Origin: Thalia democratica
Lineage: Eukaryota
Length of the DNA stretch: 64,000 bases
Assembly: GCA_965202585.1 (NCBI GenBank)
Contig: OZ241827.1
Coordinates: 21,576,001 to 21,640,000, forward strand
Reading direction: 5' to 3'
Of this stretch, positions 1 through 54,000 are shown in pieces (the stretch's first letter is position 1; each line of letters starts with the position of its first letter). A program made the position numbers.

Positions 1-3000
1 TAATTGAAGCCCTGTGTTTCAGCAAAGTATATGAAATAGTCAAAGTTTTGTAGGAAAAATATTTTGAATTTAAAATTACTTTATTGAGTTTAAAAAAAAA
101 AGTTTTTTTCATAACTGTTGTCATAATCTTACTTTTTGCATCAGCCGTTGTATATGCACTGAAAGACAAGAGATGCCTAAACAAAAGAAGCGAGTTTGTA
201 TCGTCTTGTAGACATATAAAAAAATCGCTTTTAAAGTTTAACAAGTTTTAATTTCATCTTAAAATAACCTAAATTTCAATTTGCATCTTAATTTTACCTT
301 TATCTCTTTCAATTATCTGTCCTAATATATAGTTACTCACTGAAGTTATATGAATTTTTGCTAGTTTATTGTCGATTGGTGAATTAGCTTTTGCACAAAC
401 CGTTTTGCATGATTTTTGATAGTTTCAAAATTACGTCATAATCTATTAATGCAAAAATTTTAACTTTCATTAGTGATTTTGTTTTGTGCTTTATTTTAAA
501 CTTGTTTTAAAGCTGATGAGTGAATAGTCACGAAACTCGAGTTCTTTGAGTTTTGCATCTTTAAATAAACCTTTTTTTAATAACAAAGCCCTCTAGGTGG
601 GCTCAGTGTGGAAAATTTAATTTATTAAGTTAAATAACTTAATTCTATATATATATATATATATATACATGAAAATAGAAAACAAATAAATATACTTGGT
701 CAGTTTTTTAATTTATTTTATATAGATTTTTTAAATACTTAATTTAGTTGAGTTCTTAATTTTTATAATCATTTTAGTTGAGCTTTAATAAATAAAAAAA
801 TAATTTTAAATTAAAATTTCATAGCATTTGAAATTTTTACCATTTTAGCTGATTCTTTATTTTTGAAATGTTTATGTTAACCACAGCAGTTTACCCACTT
901 TTGGTTTCTAACACATGCATTTTAACTTCTCCTTACCTCTTCCGTACAGAGCTGAAATGCGACTTCAAAACTATTCAAATGACTTTCTGTCTCTTCCTCG
1001 TAGATTTCGCATTTTATTGTGCCTCCTATGTACTCGTTCATAAAGCCTGACGACTTGGTTATGTCGTCGTGGATAGTGCAGTTGTTCGACAAGAATTCTA
1101 ATGCCACTGATCTGTAAAACACGTAACATAGCAAAACATTGAAAACTAAAAAAACTAAAAGTTGGTGACGAACTATAAAAATATTTTTAATGCCGGGAAG
1201 TTTTTGAACAACATTAACTTACTCCCAAGTGTCAAATTGTAATATATGCATAAAATGGGCCAAGTTTTTCTTCACCGTTGCCTTGTCGGTTGCCTTGGGG
1301 TCGTTGTAGCGCGGAAACTGACCCTTCACCCACCAATATTCGAATACCTCCCAGCCTTCGTCCTTAACTTCCAAACTTTCAACAGTGCCCTGCAGCAGCA
1401 AGAAACCGAAAACAGCCATCTGAAAATAGCAGTTGTTTTATTGAAAGGCAGTTTTGATTTTATTTTATCAAATAAATTAGTTGATCTTATCTTAATGTTT
1501 GATAGTAAACAAAATTAAAACAAATTTATTGCAGAATGGCTAGCTTACTGCAAAACGTTTTTTACGCGATATTGATTTTTTTATGTTGTTTAATTAAAAC
1601 CATTTAGGTCTTTCTTTTTTAGTTTTAAGCCATTAGCTTAGAATTGTTATTTTATTATAGTTTGTTAATTTTTTTTTAATCATAAACTTAAAACTTAACT
1701 TTGATTTATATTAACTTTAAAACGTTTCACTTATAATACTACCAAAATCACATCAAACAGTCGACTAACCATAATTGTATTCATTTTGTTAATGTAGTAG
1801 TTTCCAATGCTTACAACGTTGTGAAAATGACTGCTTTAACTTCGATACCACTAGTTAAAGAAAAACATAAGGAAATAATTAAATATTAAAATTCAACAGT
1901 TGCACAATTAAAATAATTAACTTCCTTGTCACACTTAATTAAAAGCACAACTAAGTTATAAAAACATTACTCATAATAAAAATTTTACAAATTAGCTTAA
2001 ATTAACAGTTTTAAACATGTGATTGTTTTTGATATTTAAAAAATTTCTTAAAAATGAAACTAATTGCTTTATCGTAAACTGTAAAAAAATTATTTTTAAA
2101 CTTAATAATTACGTTTTTTTGAAGTAAAATTTTACTTAAATGTTTAAAAATTGAAAGCATCCAACATTATCTTTTACTCAATCAAACGGATTTTCTATTT
2201 ATTTCTCTAAGAATATGTTTTTTTAGAACTCACAACAAGCGCATAGTCCTTTTTATTCAACTGAATCAACAGCATTTTAAACCAGACTTTTTACTAGAAT
2301 ATGCTTGAATTGTACGAAAAGTCAGCAATGTTCGCCAACCATTTTGTGTTTTTTATAATGCTTTAAGTTTTATTTTTGTAAAGAGCTTTCAAAAAATTTA
2401 TTTTAAGGTAGTTAAACACTTTGTAGTTAAAAATGCTCAGAATAAATTTCAAATTTTCTTCGTTTAAAAATCAATAAAAGTGTTTTGAAATTTCATTTGA
2501 TAACTATTGAAATTAATTACTTTACTTAAAACGCGGTAAAACTTTTTATGGGTAGTATTTTATGGGCACTATTTTAAGGGTAGAATTGCTGCAATCAATT
2601 CTGCCCATAACTTGATGTGATGTCGTTAAAATTATGGGTAGTATTTAGATATTGCTGCAATTAAATGAAAAATAAAATAATGTCTAGGCCTTGTATAAAT
2701 ATTATGAATAGTTTTTGGAGTTTTAAATTTATAAACAAATTAATTTAAATTAAAATATATACACATAAACCTATAGTTTGATTTATTTGTACATTTATTT
2801 AAATTATATTTTGTAAACTAACAGAAGTAGTGGCTAGACTTATTGAACGATTATGAATAATTTTCTTAATAATTAAGATTTAATAAAGAAAAATAATTGA
2901 ATATACTTAAAGCAATTGTATGGTTTATATTTTTTATACTAGCACAAGTAATGGCTTGGCATATTATAAATATTATCGATACTTTTTTTATTTAAGATTT

Positions 3001-51000: not shown

Positions 51001-54000
51001 TAGGTAAACAAAATTTATTTTACAAAAAGACGTACGTTACGTTAAACGTGTACCTTACAGCTTTAGACAAGATTTAGTTTTTTTTTTAAATTGAAAAATA
51101 GCTAATTTTTTATTGTGTTTAACAAAAGTTTTACACGCTTAGTTTATTGTTTAAGTTTTTAAAAAATTATAGGTTTATGTTATTATAAAATATATTTATG
51201 TCGTTTTTGCGTTTATTTAACTTAAATTATTTAACAAAACACCAAAAACTTATAAAAAAAATGTTATTCACCTTATTTTCAATATTTAGTGCGTACGTAT
51301 TAAAGTGCGTTCCATATTAATGTCATTACTGTACTTGACTGTCTATTCATTAAATTAAATATAAAGAAAATCTTAATTGATTCTTGTATCATACTTTTAA
51401 ATATTTACTAGATTAGTGTTATAAGTTTTTTGTCAAATGATGATAAAATTAAAGTAAACTGTATGGATAACAAACATTGACCACTTTACTACCTAATTGA
51501 ATAACACACAAAAATGTTGTAGCTAATGTTTTATTATTGTTTGAAAGTGGGTAACAAGTTTCACTTTGTAACAATTATGAATTTATTTTTTAAAGTGCAT
51601 AATGTAGTTGTAAGAATTGTGCTTTGCTCAACTTCAAAACAAAGTACTTGATAAAAGTTAGAATTGGCAAAACAGTTAGTTTTAAAAAGTAATTGCTATA
51701 TTTAGTAACTTAGTTTTTCATATAAACATAATTCAAAAAAAAAATTTAATTTGTTCCTACATACTTTAAAACATATCAAAAACTATAAAGTAGTAAAAAA
51801 ATATTTTTAAGAACACTATTTTATTTTATTTAAAAATCTGTAACTTTATTGGCTTAAGTAAATATATAACATTAAACATATTTTCAAAGAGATACTGTAA
51901 AAACCGCGACCAATACACAAACCCTTCTTGCTGATTGCGCCTGAAAACTTTCACCACAAGTATCACGCGGCGGTCGATTTTAGGTTTCTGGTAAATTTAC
52001 CTCTTTTATATTAGTTTCAAAACTTTTTTTAAGATTTTTTATAATTCTTAATATGTCTTGGTTTTAAAACTTCTACTTAAACTTACTTAATAAGTTTCAA
52101 TACAAATAAACCTTGCTTAATACAACTGATATGTTATTCTAACTGAATTTTTCGGTAAATGTATATAACCTGTATATTTTGTCTTTGCAAAAACATTTGA
52201 ACAAACTAAAGAAGCTTTTAAGTTTAAAAGTCTACTAGGAAATAATTTACGATGCAATACTCAAATATTAGAAAAATAACAAGTTGTATCTGTTGTATTA
52301 AAAGTTGAACAAAAAGCTTAAATATCATCGAGGCATCAACTTTACTGACAAATGTGATTTGTTTTTTTATAGTATAAAGTTTACTAATTTTTATGTCTAG
52401 AAGAATTTTAAACTTATACTGTTTTCCAAATACTTCGTCAATACTACACGCTCAAAGTTCACATACACTTACAATTGTTAAATTATTTTAGAAATTTAAA
52501 GTAGAATTTTTTTTTAAATATTGTAAAAATACATTTTGCCGAAACACTGCCTTACTAAAAAACTAACCTTTTGTATTTTATAAATTATTTTTGTAACATT
52601 TGAAACTTGTCATGCTTTCGATCACTAATTAGGAACTTGTCATAATAATAGTTATTATTTTAGATAAAGCATTAAATGAAATAAGAAGTTTTATTTGTCA
52701 GTCTGATTGTTTTTTAATTGCTTTTAATATAATAACCTATACAAGAAATTTTAAGAAGCTATACCACATTGTAAACATACTTTTTTCTAATTGTTTTTTT
52801 GAAAATTAAAGTTATGACTCATTTATCTTAAAATTATTTAGCATAAAAAAATTGTTATTTGATGTGAAAGTTATTAAGTAATTGTCAAATTTTTGAACAA
52901 CCTTTTTAATCATCTTTAAAAAAATAATAATGTTGAACATAAATTAAAATACTAACATAAAGTTTGTAAAAAAACAATTTTAACAAGTTATTGTTACTGT
53001 ATTTAACATGTTTAAGATTCAAATGCACATTAAATAAAAAAATCATAGACTTTTACATGAATATGTTGATTGTTTAATTTCAAATCAGGGTTTAAATAAA
53101 CGCTATAGCCACAATACTTAAAATAATAAAACAGAAGAAAATCAATTAGTTTTCATGCTAAACACAATTTTCTTTTTGTAACAAACAAAATTAAGCTTGG
53201 TCACACGCTTAACTTTCTCTTAAACACAGATAGATTCGTTTAAGAAACCAACTTTATTCAATTCAAAACAAATTTATGTATATCGATAGGTTTGGTGACA
53301 TTTTAGTGATAGACAAAAAATATTTTATAACAACAGTTTTTAGATGCAACTCTTAAACAACTGACTAATCTTAAACAAGAAGTTATTTGCGATAAAGGTC
53401 TACCACCATTTAAGATCCAGTATCAACCTAATCATTCAACCATTCGACTAGTATTGGTTTGAAGTCAAAAACGTCTGGTTGTCCCTCGTGCTTGTCCGGG
53501 GCGTTTTTGTGGTCGGACCATTTGAAAGGTGGCACCTGGTCGTGTGTTGGTCCGCACTCGGCAACCATGCTTAAGTTACTGAAGAAAAATTATTATGATT
53601 AAAAAGTTTTGTTTTTGTTACTAACGCTTAGAACAAAAAATATCAGGCTATGATTTACCATTAGCTCAACTAAATAAAACATTACAAAAGAAAACAATGT
53701 AAACTCTTTTTTGAATTTTATGTTTGTTTTTTTAGTCTGCTCGGCTAAAACTTTTGAATACTACAGGTCACCAGAGTACGACAATCACTAAAGTAGTTTT
53801 TTAATTTTCTTTAATTTTTAGTCTGATTATACAGCTATTATTACTATTTTAATCTTATAGTCCTAATTCTTTAGTTTTAATCCTAGGCTCTAAAATAATA
53901 AAATGTTTATTTATATATAGGCCATCAACCTTGTTTGAATTTCATACCAAAGCAATCTATATTACAGTCGGAAAGAAATATTTTTGCAGTTTTTTATATC

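What the first reader, a model, noticed from the sequence alone, without database searches (positions are those of the whole stretch)
2227..52000. Up to five Hlx-derived units in graded stages of decay
Intact A, nearly intact inverted B, an exon-complete pseudogene C and two relics (D, E) lie within 50 kb. Hlx is typically a single-copy ANTP-class gene in bilaterians, so a local birth-and-death array with mixed orientations is unusual. It captures several rounds of duplication together with the regulatory DNA. A, B and C are seen directly; D and E are inferred from short remnants.
Basis: partly seen in the sequence, partly recalled or inferred. Interest (0 to 1): 0.65.

Follow-up and report, generated by a model that had tools for sequence, protein, structure and literature searches.

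The report
Duplicated Hlx homeobox genes with relics
About 50 kb of what looks like a tunicate genome holds one intact Hlx-type homeobox gene, an inverted near-copy broken by two single-base deletions, an old pseudogene and some non-coding leftovers, which is an ordinary case of local gene duplication and decay with a few curious details.

Summary
The three gene copies are real. Copy A (14844-19504, +) is an intact six-exon, 415-codon gene with GT-AG introns throughout. Copy B (32402-37580, -) lies in an inverted duplicate of A's 8.5-kb unit. Its exons are 92-100% identical to A's and every splice site is kept. Two separate 1-nt deletions in exon 2 give a stop at codon 32 of that exon. Copy C (2222-8794, +) has remnants of all six exons, with at least 6 stops, a frameshift and a lost start codon. 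Its exon 5 still translates identically to A's.

Named relatives and a tree place the gene in the Hlx/H2.0 family, closest to tunicate proteins.

D and E contain no exon remnants. They are short conserved non-coding cores inside a second duplicated block, Q (23491-31569) and Q' (42350-52004). One type of core is an inverted piece of upstream DNA. The other is a ~170-bp piece of intron 4, and nothing beyond that core scores above the null.

This is birth-and-death evolution by segmental duplication. It is a new example of a known kind of event and of moderate-to-low interest.

The parts
14844..14957 (+). Copy A exon 1 (start codon, 38 codons, donor GTAATT)
   Evidence: Matches residues 1-40 of P0001 via copy B.
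15198..15735 (+). Copy A exon 2 (contains the FSIEAILG motif; donor GTAAGT)
   Evidence: 46% identical to P0001 residues 38-224.
15916..16035 (+). Copy A exon 3
   Evidence: 120/120 nt identical to copy B.
16936..17140 (+). Copy A exon 4 (ends with the N-terminal arm of the homeodomain, ...KKRRKWSRTVF)
18845..18950 (+). Copy A exon 5 (homeodomain helices 1-2)
   Evidence: Pfam Homeodomain E=7.4e-07, profile positions 11-43. Coordinates.
19340..19504 (+). Copy A exon 6 (homeodomain helix 3, tail, stop TAA at 19502-19504)
   Evidence: Pfam Homeodomain positions 45-57, E=0.0019, 18.4 bits, below the 22.9-bit cut-off. Coordinates.
37467..37580 (-). Copy B exon 1 (open, ATG kept)
   Evidence: 105/114 nt identical to A.
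36719..37251 (-). Copy B exon 2, broken by 1-nt deletions near 37249 and 37046 and a 3-nt deletion near 36749
   Evidence: Read in the phase set by exon 1, it reaches a stop at codon 32.
36372..36491 (-). Copy B exon 3
   Evidence: 120/120 nt identical to A, with AG/GT kept.
35278..35482 (-). Copy B exon 4 (last full codon Phe->Leu)
   Evidence: 197/205 nt identical to A.
33467..33572 (-). Copy B exon 5 (homeodomain)
   Evidence: Pfam Homeodomain E=5.9e-07. 103/106 nt identical to A.
32402..32566 (-). Copy B exon 6 (helix 3 intact, six tail substitutions, stop kept)
2222..2341 (+). Copy C exon-1 remnant (start codon and donor lost, one stop)
   Evidence: 74.5% nt identity to A.
2546..4204 (.). 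Degenerate tandem-repeat block that stretches C's first intron to about 3.4 kb (240 bp in A)
   Evidence: Self-matches. TRF finds a 119-bp unit at 2873-3134.
5721..5933 (+). Copy C exon-2 remnant (3' half only, with a stop)
   Evidence: 62.5% nt identity over the whole exon alignment.
6227..6349 (+). Copy C exon-3 remnant (stop; donor GTGAGT kept)
   Evidence: 82.5% nt identity.
6904..7052 (+). Copy C exon-4 remnant (two stops, a frame change, homeodomain arm not alignable)
   Evidence: 78% nt identity.
8190..8295 (+). Copy C exon 5: open, AG/GT kept, translation identical to A. The conserved block is 8182-8302.
   Evidence: 95.3% identical to A and 97.5% to B, with flanks that do not align.
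8719..8794 (+). Copy C exon-6 remnant (helix 3 decayed, with a stop)
   Evidence: 67% nt identity.
11127..19638 (+). Block P: copy A with 3.7 kb of upstream DNA
32268..41862 (-). Block P': inverted copy of P carrying copy B. B-specific insertions lie near 40400-40700, 37680-37870 and 32740-33152.
   Evidence: Non-coding identity 85% over 7065 aligned columns.
23491..31569 (+). Block Q
42350..52004 (+). Block Q': direct copy of Q (75% over 7295 aligned columns; left ~3 kb about 85%, right ~4.5 kb about 65-70%)
23490..24792 (-). Relic in Q: inverted copy of A's upstream DNA, with cores at 23490-23536, 24521-24666 and 24753-24792
42373..43773 (-). Relic in Q': inverted copy of A's upstream DNA, with cores at 42373-42455, 43476-43618 and 43709-43773
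   Evidence: 95-bit alignment to A 12937-14385. Cores.
30399..30546 (+). Relic in Q: copy of the intron-4 core (A 18309-18479, B 33934-34104)
   Evidence: 111/146 identical to A. Only the core is significant.
50796..50944 (+). Relic in Q': copy of the intron-4 core
   Evidence: 112/147 identical to A.
12834..13334 (+). Upstream non-coding block that is 96-100% identical between A and B. Part of it recurs in Q and Q'.
   Evidence: For A 13081-13230: A/B 147/150, Q/Q' 136/142, and 62% between the two pairs.

Best explanation
The window comes from an AT-rich animal genome, most likely a tunicate. A single Hlx/H2.0-class homeobox gene with its regulatory DNA was copied locally several times, and most copies have decayed.

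Shown:
- One intact gene, A.
- A younger inverted duplicate, B. It was kept like a working gene for a time: its exons are much better conserved than its introns, and omega is about 0.33. It is now broken by two 1-nt deletions in exon 2.
- An older same-strand duplicate, C, which is an unprocessed pseudogene.
- A duplicated block, Q/Q', that carries only non-coding pieces resembling the gene's upstream region and intron 4.

Inferred:
- The two ~20-kb stretches 11127-31569 and 32268-52004 arose by tandem segmental duplication. The gene-bearing part was inverted in the second copy. This happened either in one complex event followed by uneven divergence, or in two steps, with Q/Q' (at least its right part) first and P/P' later.
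- Exon 5 of C was overwritten from A or B by a short gene-conversion tract.
- The cores in Q and Q' are what remains of one or two still older units. They survived because they are regulatory elements under selection.
For: Gene identity:
- Pfam Homeodomain matches exon 5 of A, B and C.
- The full-length relative P0001 maps onto six exons in A and B.
- P0001's homeodomain is 77-81% identical to Ciona and Clavelina proteins and 60-63% identical to invertebrate proteins, one of them named H2.0-like. In that search 14 of 16 candidates passed.
- Of 10 clusters looked up, 3 are named H2.0-like and 1 AHox1-like. None carries another class name.
- In the tree, 20 Hlx-like rows, including P0001, separate from 12 other homeodomains with 97/94 support.

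Copy A: 1248 nt, six exons, consistent phases, all GT-AG.

Copy B:
- Exon identity to A is 92-100%, with AG/GT at every intron.
- Against A there are 28 synonymous and 38 non-synonymous differences: dS 0.12, dN 0.04, omega 0.33, and a non-coding distance of 0.17.
- The deletions are seen. The stop at codon 32 of exon 2 is seen.
- There are 13 B-unique and 7 A-unique residue changes in exon 2.

Copy C: at least 6 stops, a frame change, a lost ATG and a lost donor. Exon identity to A is 62-82%, except exon 5 at 95%. The chance of 115 or more matches in 121 at p=0.81 is 7e-6.

Relics: 3 alignments to Q/Q' score above the null. The cores are 73-87% identical to A and B, against 51-55% in the flanks. 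They are also better conserved within each pair than their flanks: Q/Q' 136/142 against 641/747 (Fisher p=5e-4), and A/B 147/150 against 634/764 (p=5e-8).

Layout: the two ~20-kb copies nearly abut.
Against: - There are no expression data, so 'intact' and 'broken' are read from the DNA only.
- B's two deletions are single bases and could be assembly errors.
- P/P' and Q/Q' differ clearly in divergence: median window identity 84.7% against 74.2%, Mann-Whitney p=4e-8. A single uniform duplication event is therefore not cleanly supported.
- No exon remnant was found in Q or Q'.
- The intron-4-type relic has no significant homology outside a ~170-bp core. Copy C lacks that core by blastn, so the core could be a later insertion.
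- The outgroups in the tree were picked from the hits of one search. No protein named Dbx, Barhl or Nk2 was included.
- The organism is not identified, and synteny could not be examined.
Confidence: 0.75

Rival explanations
1. Copy B is a working gene. Its two 1-nt deletions are assembly errors, or they are bypassed, for example by translation from an internal Met downstream of the second deletion. That would give a homeodomain protein without exon 1 and the FSIEAILG-type motif.
For: - Exons 3-6 of B are open, and splice sites and the stop codon are kept.
- Exon 3 is 120/120 identical to A.
- Omega is 0.33, below 1.
- Upstream non-coding blocks are 96-100% conserved between A and B.
- A close database relative of exon 2 (P0020) has an open frame across both positions.
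Against: - There are two independent frame-breaking deletions, neither in a long homopolymer (TT->T, CCC->CC). Exon 2 read in phase has many stops.
- B has more unique residue changes than A, 13 against 7, although the binomial p is only 0.26.
- B changes a conserved Phe in the homeodomain arm to Leu. All 20 Hlx-like rows keep Phe at that position.
- A ~200-bp insertion lies directly upstream of B's exon 1.
Confidence: 0.15
2. The cores in Q and Q' are not remains of Hlx units. They are copies of a short dispersed or mobile element that also sits in A's and B's intron 4 and upstream DNA.
For: - With the cores masked, nothing above the null links intron 4 to Q or Q'.
- Copy C has no copy of the intron-4 core by blastn.
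- No exon remnants lie next to the cores.
Against: - The upstream-type relic has three collinear cores over about 1.3 kb, in the same order and spacing as in A and B.
- After masking, the best remaining hits are still the collinear ones.
- The cores occur only in these four blocks of the 64-kb window.
- The cores are better conserved than their flanks within both pairs, which fits constraint better than selfish spread.
- Genome-wide copy number could not be checked.
Confidence: 0.15
3. Exon 5 of copy C is preserved by selection, not by gene conversion. It could be an exon still used in some transcript, or a nucleotide-level regulatory element.
For: The conserved block coincides almost exactly with the exon plus about 10 nt on each side. 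The AG and GT are intact and the translation is identical to A's.
Against: - Synonymous positions are conserved as well. There are 5 differences from A in 106 nt, and none changes a residue. Protein-level selection alone would not give this when C's other exons are 62-82% identical.
- Helix 3 in C's exon 6 is decayed and carries a stop, so no homeodomain can be made.
- In exon 5, C is no further from A and B than they are from each other. A has 3 unique sites, B has 1 and C has 3. This fits a recent copy.
Confidence: 0.2
4. The copies are an assembly artefact, that is, mis-joined haplotypes or a wrongly duplicated region.
For: None from my calls. Tunicate genomes are known for high heterozygosity (recalled, not from a call).
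Against: - A and B are in opposite orientation.
- They differ at about 15% of aligned non-coding positions and by indels of 200-450 bp.
- Q and Q' differ at about 25% of positions.
- C is far more diverged.
- The window contains no N.
Confidence: 0.03

Closest known systems
Hlx / H2.0 homeobox family (ANTP class, NKL subclass; 'AHox1-like' in the tunicate Styela clava)
   Same: - The homeodomain pattern is shared with proteins named H2.0-like from alligator, turtle, corals and Lingula: W-[ST]-R-[AT]-V-F near the start, and the LGLTDAQV block before helix 3.
- These proteins form one group in the tree with 97/94 support.
- An upstream F-[SG]-I-[ED]-x-I-L motif is present in A, P0001 and the tunicate and invertebrate relatives.
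   Different: - The window's homeodomain pieces and P0001 differ from the Ciona, Clavelina and Styela proteins at several positions, for example RIELEKS against RRGLEKS or RQGLEKS, and KRERLG against KPERRG or KAERRK.
- The protein is shorter: 415 codons against 548-803 aa in those tunicates.
- Several copies sit together here. The human list has one HLX gene (PMC2211742, passages read). Panarthropods have one or none (PMC13088399, passages read).
Multiple HLX genes of the sea anemone Nematostella (HLXa-d, HLXc-like)
   Same: More than one Hlx-family gene in one genome (PMC1779807, passages read).
   Different: The Nematostella genes are described as lying on different scaffolds or hundreds of kilobases from other homeobox genes, not as a local array with pseudogenes. 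They are in a cnidarian, not a bilaterian. I could not see the supplementary figures.
Local homeobox duplications with birth-and-death decay (for example the four-gene Mox cluster within 23 kb in Nematostella, and the homeobox pseudogenes in the human list such as MSX2P1 and NANOGP1)
   Same: Tandem or local copies of a homeobox gene, some degenerating into pseudogenes (PMC1779807 and PMC2211742, passages read).
   Different: Here one copy is inverted, one pseudogene keeps a single exon nearly unchanged, and the oldest remnants are non-coding cores only.
Inverted segmental duplications produced by replication-based template switching or by duplication followed by inversion (recalled; no call or paper consulted)
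   Same: Two ~20-kb copies that nearly abut, with an inverted segment inside the second.
   Different: No junction microhomology or flanking repeat was identified. The two parts differ in divergence, so more than one event may be involved.

Membership tests
Hlx / H2.0 homeobox family | Contains a homeodomain | tested here: met
   Pfam PF00046 matches exon 5 of A, B and C at 29.3-29.6 bits (cut-off 22.9). Exon 6 of A matches profile positions 45-57 at 18.4 bits, below the cut-off because the piece is short. Exons were tested one at a time.
Hlx / H2.0 homeobox family | The homeodomain groups with named Hlx/H2.0 proteins and not with other classes | tested here: met
   Tested through the database relative P0001, which is 95% identical to A's exon 5. 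In the tree, 20 Hlx-like rows (5 named H2.0-like, 1 AHox1-like) separate from 12 other homeodomains at 97/94. Of 10 clusters looked up, 4 have Hlx-type names and none another class name. Limits: I chose the 32 rows from about 190 proteins in hand, and no protein named Dbx, Barhl or Nk2 was among the outgroups.
Hlx / H2.0 homeobox family | Family-typical residues in the N-terminal arm and before helix 3 | tested here: met
   A's exon 4 ends ...KWSRTVF and its exon 5 ends ...LGLTDAQ. All 20 Hlx-like rows have the V-F pair. 19 of the 20 have Trp two residues before the conserved Arg; the exception is P0012. The 12 other rows have R-T-x-[FY]-type arms. That these residues are formally diagnostic is my reading, not a curated rule.
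Hlx / H2.0 homeobox family | One-to-one orthology with Hlx of other chordates, by synteny | not testable with these tools
Unprocessed (duplicated) pseudogene - copy C | Keeps the exon-intron layout of the parent and carries disabling mutations | tested here: met
   Six collinear exon remnants are separated by intron-like spacers. There is one stop in each of the exon-1, -2, -3 and -6 remnants and two in exon 4, plus a frame change in exon 4, a lost ATG and a lost exon-1 donor.
Pseudogene - copy B | The reading frame cannot be translated into the full protein | tested here: met
   Two 1-nt deletions in exon 2. Entered in phase, the exon gives a stop at codon 32. Whether the deletions are real in the animal, and whether B is transcribed, was not testable.
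Segmental duplication | Two or more long (>1 kb) non-repeat copies with high identity in one genome | tested here: met
   P/P' is 8.5 kb at 85% non-coding identity and inverted. Q/Q' is about 8-9.6 kb at 75% and direct.
Gene conversion tract (C exon 5) | A short stretch of much higher identity than its flanks between paralogues, with sharp borders | tested here: met
   Positions 8182-8302 are 95-97.5% identical to A and B, and the flanks do not align. Donor and timing are inconclusive: A has 3 unique sites, B has 1 and C has 3.
Conserved non-coding (regulatory) element | Conserved above neutral flanks in independent lineages | tested here: met
   The cores are 73-87% identical between pairs, against 51-55% in flanks. 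Within pairs they are 96-98%, against 83-86% in flanks (Fisher p=5e-4 and 5e-8).
Conserved non-coding (regulatory) element | Drives or modulates transcription | not testable with these tools
   This needs reporter assays or chromatin data.

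The most novel reading that the evidence does not exclude
The Q and Q' 'relics' are not junk. They would be enhancers of long-dead Hlx copies that outlived their coding exons, stayed under selection, were duplicated again, and now act as extra (shadow) regulatory modules for the surviving gene A and possibly for B. Alongside this, the homeobox exon of pseudogene C would be kept nearly unchanged by exchange with the live copies. The locus would then show regulatory DNA and single exons persisting independently of the genes that brought them.
Probability: 0.25. Interest if true: 0.55.

Novelty: new member of a known kind. Interest (0 to 1): 0.35.

Why it matters
In the passages I read, Hlx/H2.0 is a developmental regulator that is a single gene in the human list and single-copy or lost in panarthropods. 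A lineage-specific local expansion in a tunicate gives a small natural series: one live gene, one freshly broken copy, one old pseudogene and non-coding remains. Such a series can be used to ask how fast coding and regulatory parts of a developmental gene decay after duplication, and whether enhancers survive the death of their gene. For annotation, only copy A should be called a gene. B and C should be flagged as probable pseudogenes. C's isolated homeobox exon can mislead homeobox counts.

Tried and rejected
- My first four-exon model of A could not be spliced in frame between its first two exons. P0001 showed that two exons were missing.
- My first exon-5 coordinates were miscounted, so that frame was wrong. 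They were corrected.
- The solved-structure search with exon 5 listed 60 of 65 matches. All were other classes (Nkx-3.1, TLX2, BarH-like, CDX, Antp and others) and none was named HLX, so it could not classify the gene.
- The word-indexed search with a 41-aa piece around exon 5 gave only 1 hit among 73 candidates.
- The multi-stretch top hits of the representative search (P0016-P0019, P0024, P0028) looked like fused tandem copies. The two I fetched, P0017 and P0018, are repeats of other homeobox types and are irrelevant here.
- Using P0180 as outgroup to place P0020 was inconclusive: 3 sites group A with B, 2 group A with P0020 and 0 group B with P0020.
- A weak exon-1-like match on the minus strand at 30913-30963 (E=4.7) and other hits with E>0.1 in Q and Q' were treated as chance.
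- No shared repeat or microhomology was found at the block boundaries, and the spacers 19.6-23.5 kb, 31.5-32.3 kb and 41.8-42.4 kb are unique in the window.
- Rfam and tRNA scans found nothing.
- Pfam found nothing for the GC-rich patch at 31263-31925 or for the ORFs at 853-1515.
- Four literature searches found no paper describing a tunicate Hlx array. 'AHox1' had 0 occurrences in the 15 papers listed.
- Structure prediction, fold search, complex prediction and the protein atlas were not used, because they would not bear on the question.

Full report
**Material and limits.** The window is 64 kb, 24.9% G+C and has no N. I do not take it for human, because its closest protein relatives are tunicate proteins, so nothing was withheld on that ground. 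I made no joined CDS or protein, and where totals are given they are sums of per-exon numbers. Synteny in related species and genome-wide copy numbers therefore stayed unchecked. Supplementary files of the papers were not seen.

**Layout.** A self-comparison shows two pairs of blocks.
- P (11127-19638) and P' (41862-32268) are inverted copies at 78-85% identity.
- Q (23491-30833) and Q' (42410-51552) are direct copies at 66-79%. A more sensitive comparison extends them to about 31569 and 52004.
- A third, weaker, same-strand copy of the gene part of P lies at 2222-8794.

**The gene.** The helix-3 motif occurs twice, at 19349 (+) and 32557 (-).
- Pfam's Homeodomain model matches the exon-5 pieces of all three copies and, more weakly, exon 6 of A.
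- A 41-residue piece around exon 5 found one database protein, P0001. It is 416 aa, comes from a transcript-sized contig and is 95% identical over that piece.
- Mapping P0001 onto the window by tblastn showed six coding exons. This corrected my first four-exon model, which could not be spliced in frame.
- Copy A is then 14844-14957, 15198-15735, 15916-16035, 16936-17140, 18845-18950 and 19340-19504. That is 1248 nt, or 415 codons plus a stop, with consistent phases and GT-AG at all five introns.
- The homeodomain is interrupted after its position 8-9 and after position 44.

**Family.**
- The homeodomain of P0001 is 77-81% identical to proteins of Ciona intestinalis, C. savignyi and Clavelina lepadiformis. 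It is 60-63% identical to a set of invertebrate proteins, one of which (Lingula) is named H2.0-like homeobox protein. In that search 14 of 16 candidates passed.
- A full scan of 1.84 billion representatives gave 15,770 hits at E≤0.001.
- From the 150 hits listed I picked 10 single-domain hits with high identity. Three clusters are named H2.0-like (corals, alligator, turtle) and one AHox1-like (Styela clava). Three have only generic names and three have none. None has the name of another class.
- In a tree of 32 homeodomains that I selected, the 20 Hlx-like rows, including P0001, separate from 12 other homeodomains with 97/94 support. The outgroups came from the same search and include no protein named Dbx, Barhl or Nk2.
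- I recall that AHox1 is the H2.0-type gene of the ascidian Halocynthia. The library listing showed no occurrence of that name, so this remains recollection.
- I conclude that the gene is Hlx/H2.0-class and the organism is probably a tunicate outside the genera named above.

**Copy B** (32402-37580, minus strand).
- All six exons are present, with AG/GT at every intron and the stop codon kept.
- Exon identity to A is 92.1, 91.8, 100, 96.1, 97.2 and about 95%. Non-coding identity is 85% over 7065 aligned columns.
- Summed over exons there are 28 synonymous and 38 non-synonymous differences: dS 0.12, dN 0.04, omega 0.33.
- Exon 2 carries a 1-nt deletion five bases after the acceptor, a second 1-nt deletion near 37046 and a 3-nt deletion near 36749. 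Entered in the phase set by exon 1, it reaches a stop at codon 32 and many more afterwards.
- B also changes the conserved Phe of the homeodomain arm to Leu. It has a ~200-bp insertion just upstream of exon 1, and insertions of about 300 and 450 bp elsewhere.
- Against the close exon-2 relative P0020 (91% identical to A, open frame), B has 13 unique residue changes and A has 7, out of 175 compared. The binomial p is 0.26, so this is only a tendency.
- B therefore looks like a duplicate that was constrained for a while and has recently been disabled. If the two deletions are sequencing errors, it would instead be a second working gene.

**Copy C** (2222-8794, plus strand).
- All six exons have collinear remnants. 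Their identity to A is 74.5, 62.5, 82.5, 78.0, 95.3 and 67.3%.
- There is one stop in each of the exon-1, -2, -3 and -6 remnants and two in exon 4. Exon 4 also has a frame change. The start codon and the exon-1 donor are lost, and the part of exon 4 that encodes the homeodomain arm is not alignable. Helix 3 reads WYQSRRME-stop.
- Its first intron is stretched to about 3.4 kb by a degenerate tandem array.
- The exception is exon 5. The block 8182-8302 is 95-97.5% identical to A and B, keeps AG and GT, and translates identically to A. The DNA immediately outside it does not align. At the 81% identity of the next-best exon, the chance of 115 or more matches in 121 is 7e-6.
- Inside the block A has 3 unique sites, B has 1 and C has 3. 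C's exon 5 is therefore about as young as the A/B split.
- Because synonymous sites are preserved too, and the rest of the homeodomain is destroyed, I read this as a short gene-conversion tract. Selection on the exon as DNA or as part of some transcript is the alternative.

**D and E.** A sensitive search with unit A (11127-19700) against the rest of the window was compared with one reversed and ten block-shuffled queries, whose best score was 66.8 bits. Eight real alignments exceed this. By rank order they are:
- five to C;
- A 17673-18769 against 29772-30831 (131 bits);
- A 18072-18554 against 50585-51010 (103 bits);
- A 12937-14385 against 43775-42350, inverted (95 bits).

The corresponding inverted matches in Q score 55-62 bits. 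That is inside the null range, but they are collinear.

Four-way alignments show that the signal is concentrated in cores.

| Core | A coordinates | A/B identity | Q/Q' identity | Between pairs | Flanks between pairs |
|---|---|---|---|---|---|
| Intron 4 | 18309-18479 | 92% | 81% | 73-76% | 52-55% |
| Upstream proximal | 14280-14326 | 47/47 | 85% | 85-87% | about 51% |
| Upstream distal block | 13081-13230 | 98% | 96% | 62% | about 51% |

- When the two strongest cores are masked, nothing above the null links intron 4 to Q or Q'. The inverted upstream matches remain at 58-67 bits, against null maxima of 64 and 61.
- No exon remnant was found in Q or Q'.
- The relics are therefore real but short, non-coding, and present twice only because Q was duplicated.
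- Their order is inverted upstream DNA, then about 4 kb, then a plus-strand intron-4 core. This fits either one very old unit whose upstream part was inverted, or two old head-to-head units.
- In both pairs the cores are better conserved than their flanks (Fisher p=5e-4 and 5e-8). That is the pattern expected of regulatory elements under constraint.
- The TGTCA, ATTTGCAT and TAAT-type motifs in the intron-4 core resemble known transcription-factor sites. That resemblance is from recollection.

**History.** The stretches 11127-31569 and 32268-52004 nearly abut, which suggests a ~20-kb tandem duplication with the P part inverted in the second copy.
- Divergence is not uniform. Median 100-column identity is 84.7% for non-coding P/P' (66 windows) and 74.2% for Q/Q' (70 windows), p=4e-8. 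The left ~3 kb of Q/Q' is near 85% and the right ~4.5 kb near 65-70%.
- Either constraint and exchange have kept P/P' and the left of Q/Q' more alike, or there were two events, with the right part older.
- C is 60-72% identical to A in alignable introns, and the relic flanks are near saturation. Both are older still.
- Several rounds of duplication are thus supported, but their exact order is not settled.
- No repeat or microhomology marks the boundaries.

**Other relatives.** Short single-exon ORFs from unnamed public contigs show further versions of exon 2 (P0020, P0180/P0181, P0015/P0159) and exon 4 (P0140/P0158). Those contigs are 524-4410 nt long and give no context. An outgroup test could not say whether P0020 split before or after the A/B duplication, with 3, 2 and 0 informative sites.

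**Comparison with what is known.**
- The human homeobox list has a single HLX gene in the NKL subclass (PMC2211742, passages read).
- In panarthropods Hlx/H2.0 is described as single-copy or lost (PMC13088399, passages read).
- Nematostella has several HLX genes, but they are dispersed (PMC1779807, passages read).
- Four full-text searches found no description of a tunicate Hlx array. The library lacks most subscription journals, so this is weak evidence that none is in print.
- The process itself, local duplication with inversion, pseudogene formation, conversion and retained non-coding elements, is well known.

**Verdict.** This is a new example of a known kind of event. The points worth following up are the exon-only preservation in C and the conserved cores in gene-less blocks.

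Noticed in passing
window 53431-61459 (- strand): Exons of a phospholipase-B-like gene lie downstream of Q'. Pfam Phospholip_B matches 56860-57132 (E=1.6e-14) and 54387-54599 (E=5.4e-08). It could anchor synteny comparisons.
   Followed up: partly
window 31263-31925: A GC-rich patch (44-51% against a 25% background) has ORFs open on both strands. It sits at the join between the two ~20-kb copies. Most of it is absent from the matching place after Q', where only 31532-31569 recurs at 51967-52004. There was no Pfam or Rfam match.
   Followed up: partly
window 853-1515: GC-richer ORFs (36-46%) lie on both strands upstream of copy C. They may be an exon of a neighbouring gene. There was no Pfam match.
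   Followed up: partly
window 62194-62672: The same peptide strings appear in ORFs on both strands (seen), which suggests an inverted repeat in a GC-richer stretch (61.8-62.7 kb).
   Followed up: no
window 44879-45168, 26585-26744, 63179-63784: There are three tandem arrays: a 15-bp unit x19 inside Q' with no counterpart in Q, a 57-bp unit x2.8 in Q, and a 152-bp unit x4 near the window end.
   Followed up: no
window 11189-11389, 11871-11971, 14407-14507, 17484-17783: Further non-coding stretches are 92-100% identical between A and B, against a 70-80% background. They are candidate regulatory elements, or recent exchange tracts, that are not shared with Q and Q'.
   Followed up: partly
proteins P0140/P0158 (unnamed public contigs): These are open exon-4-like ORFs in which the conserved Trp of the homeodomain arm is Leu. 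They share 'LHPMT' with the decayed copy C. They may be a C-type paralogue in a related genome.
   Followed up: no
proteins P0017, P0018 (representative search): These database proteins consist of 5-6 near-identical repeats of a non-Hlx homeodomain. They look like gene models run across tandem copies or assembly repeats.
   Followed up: no
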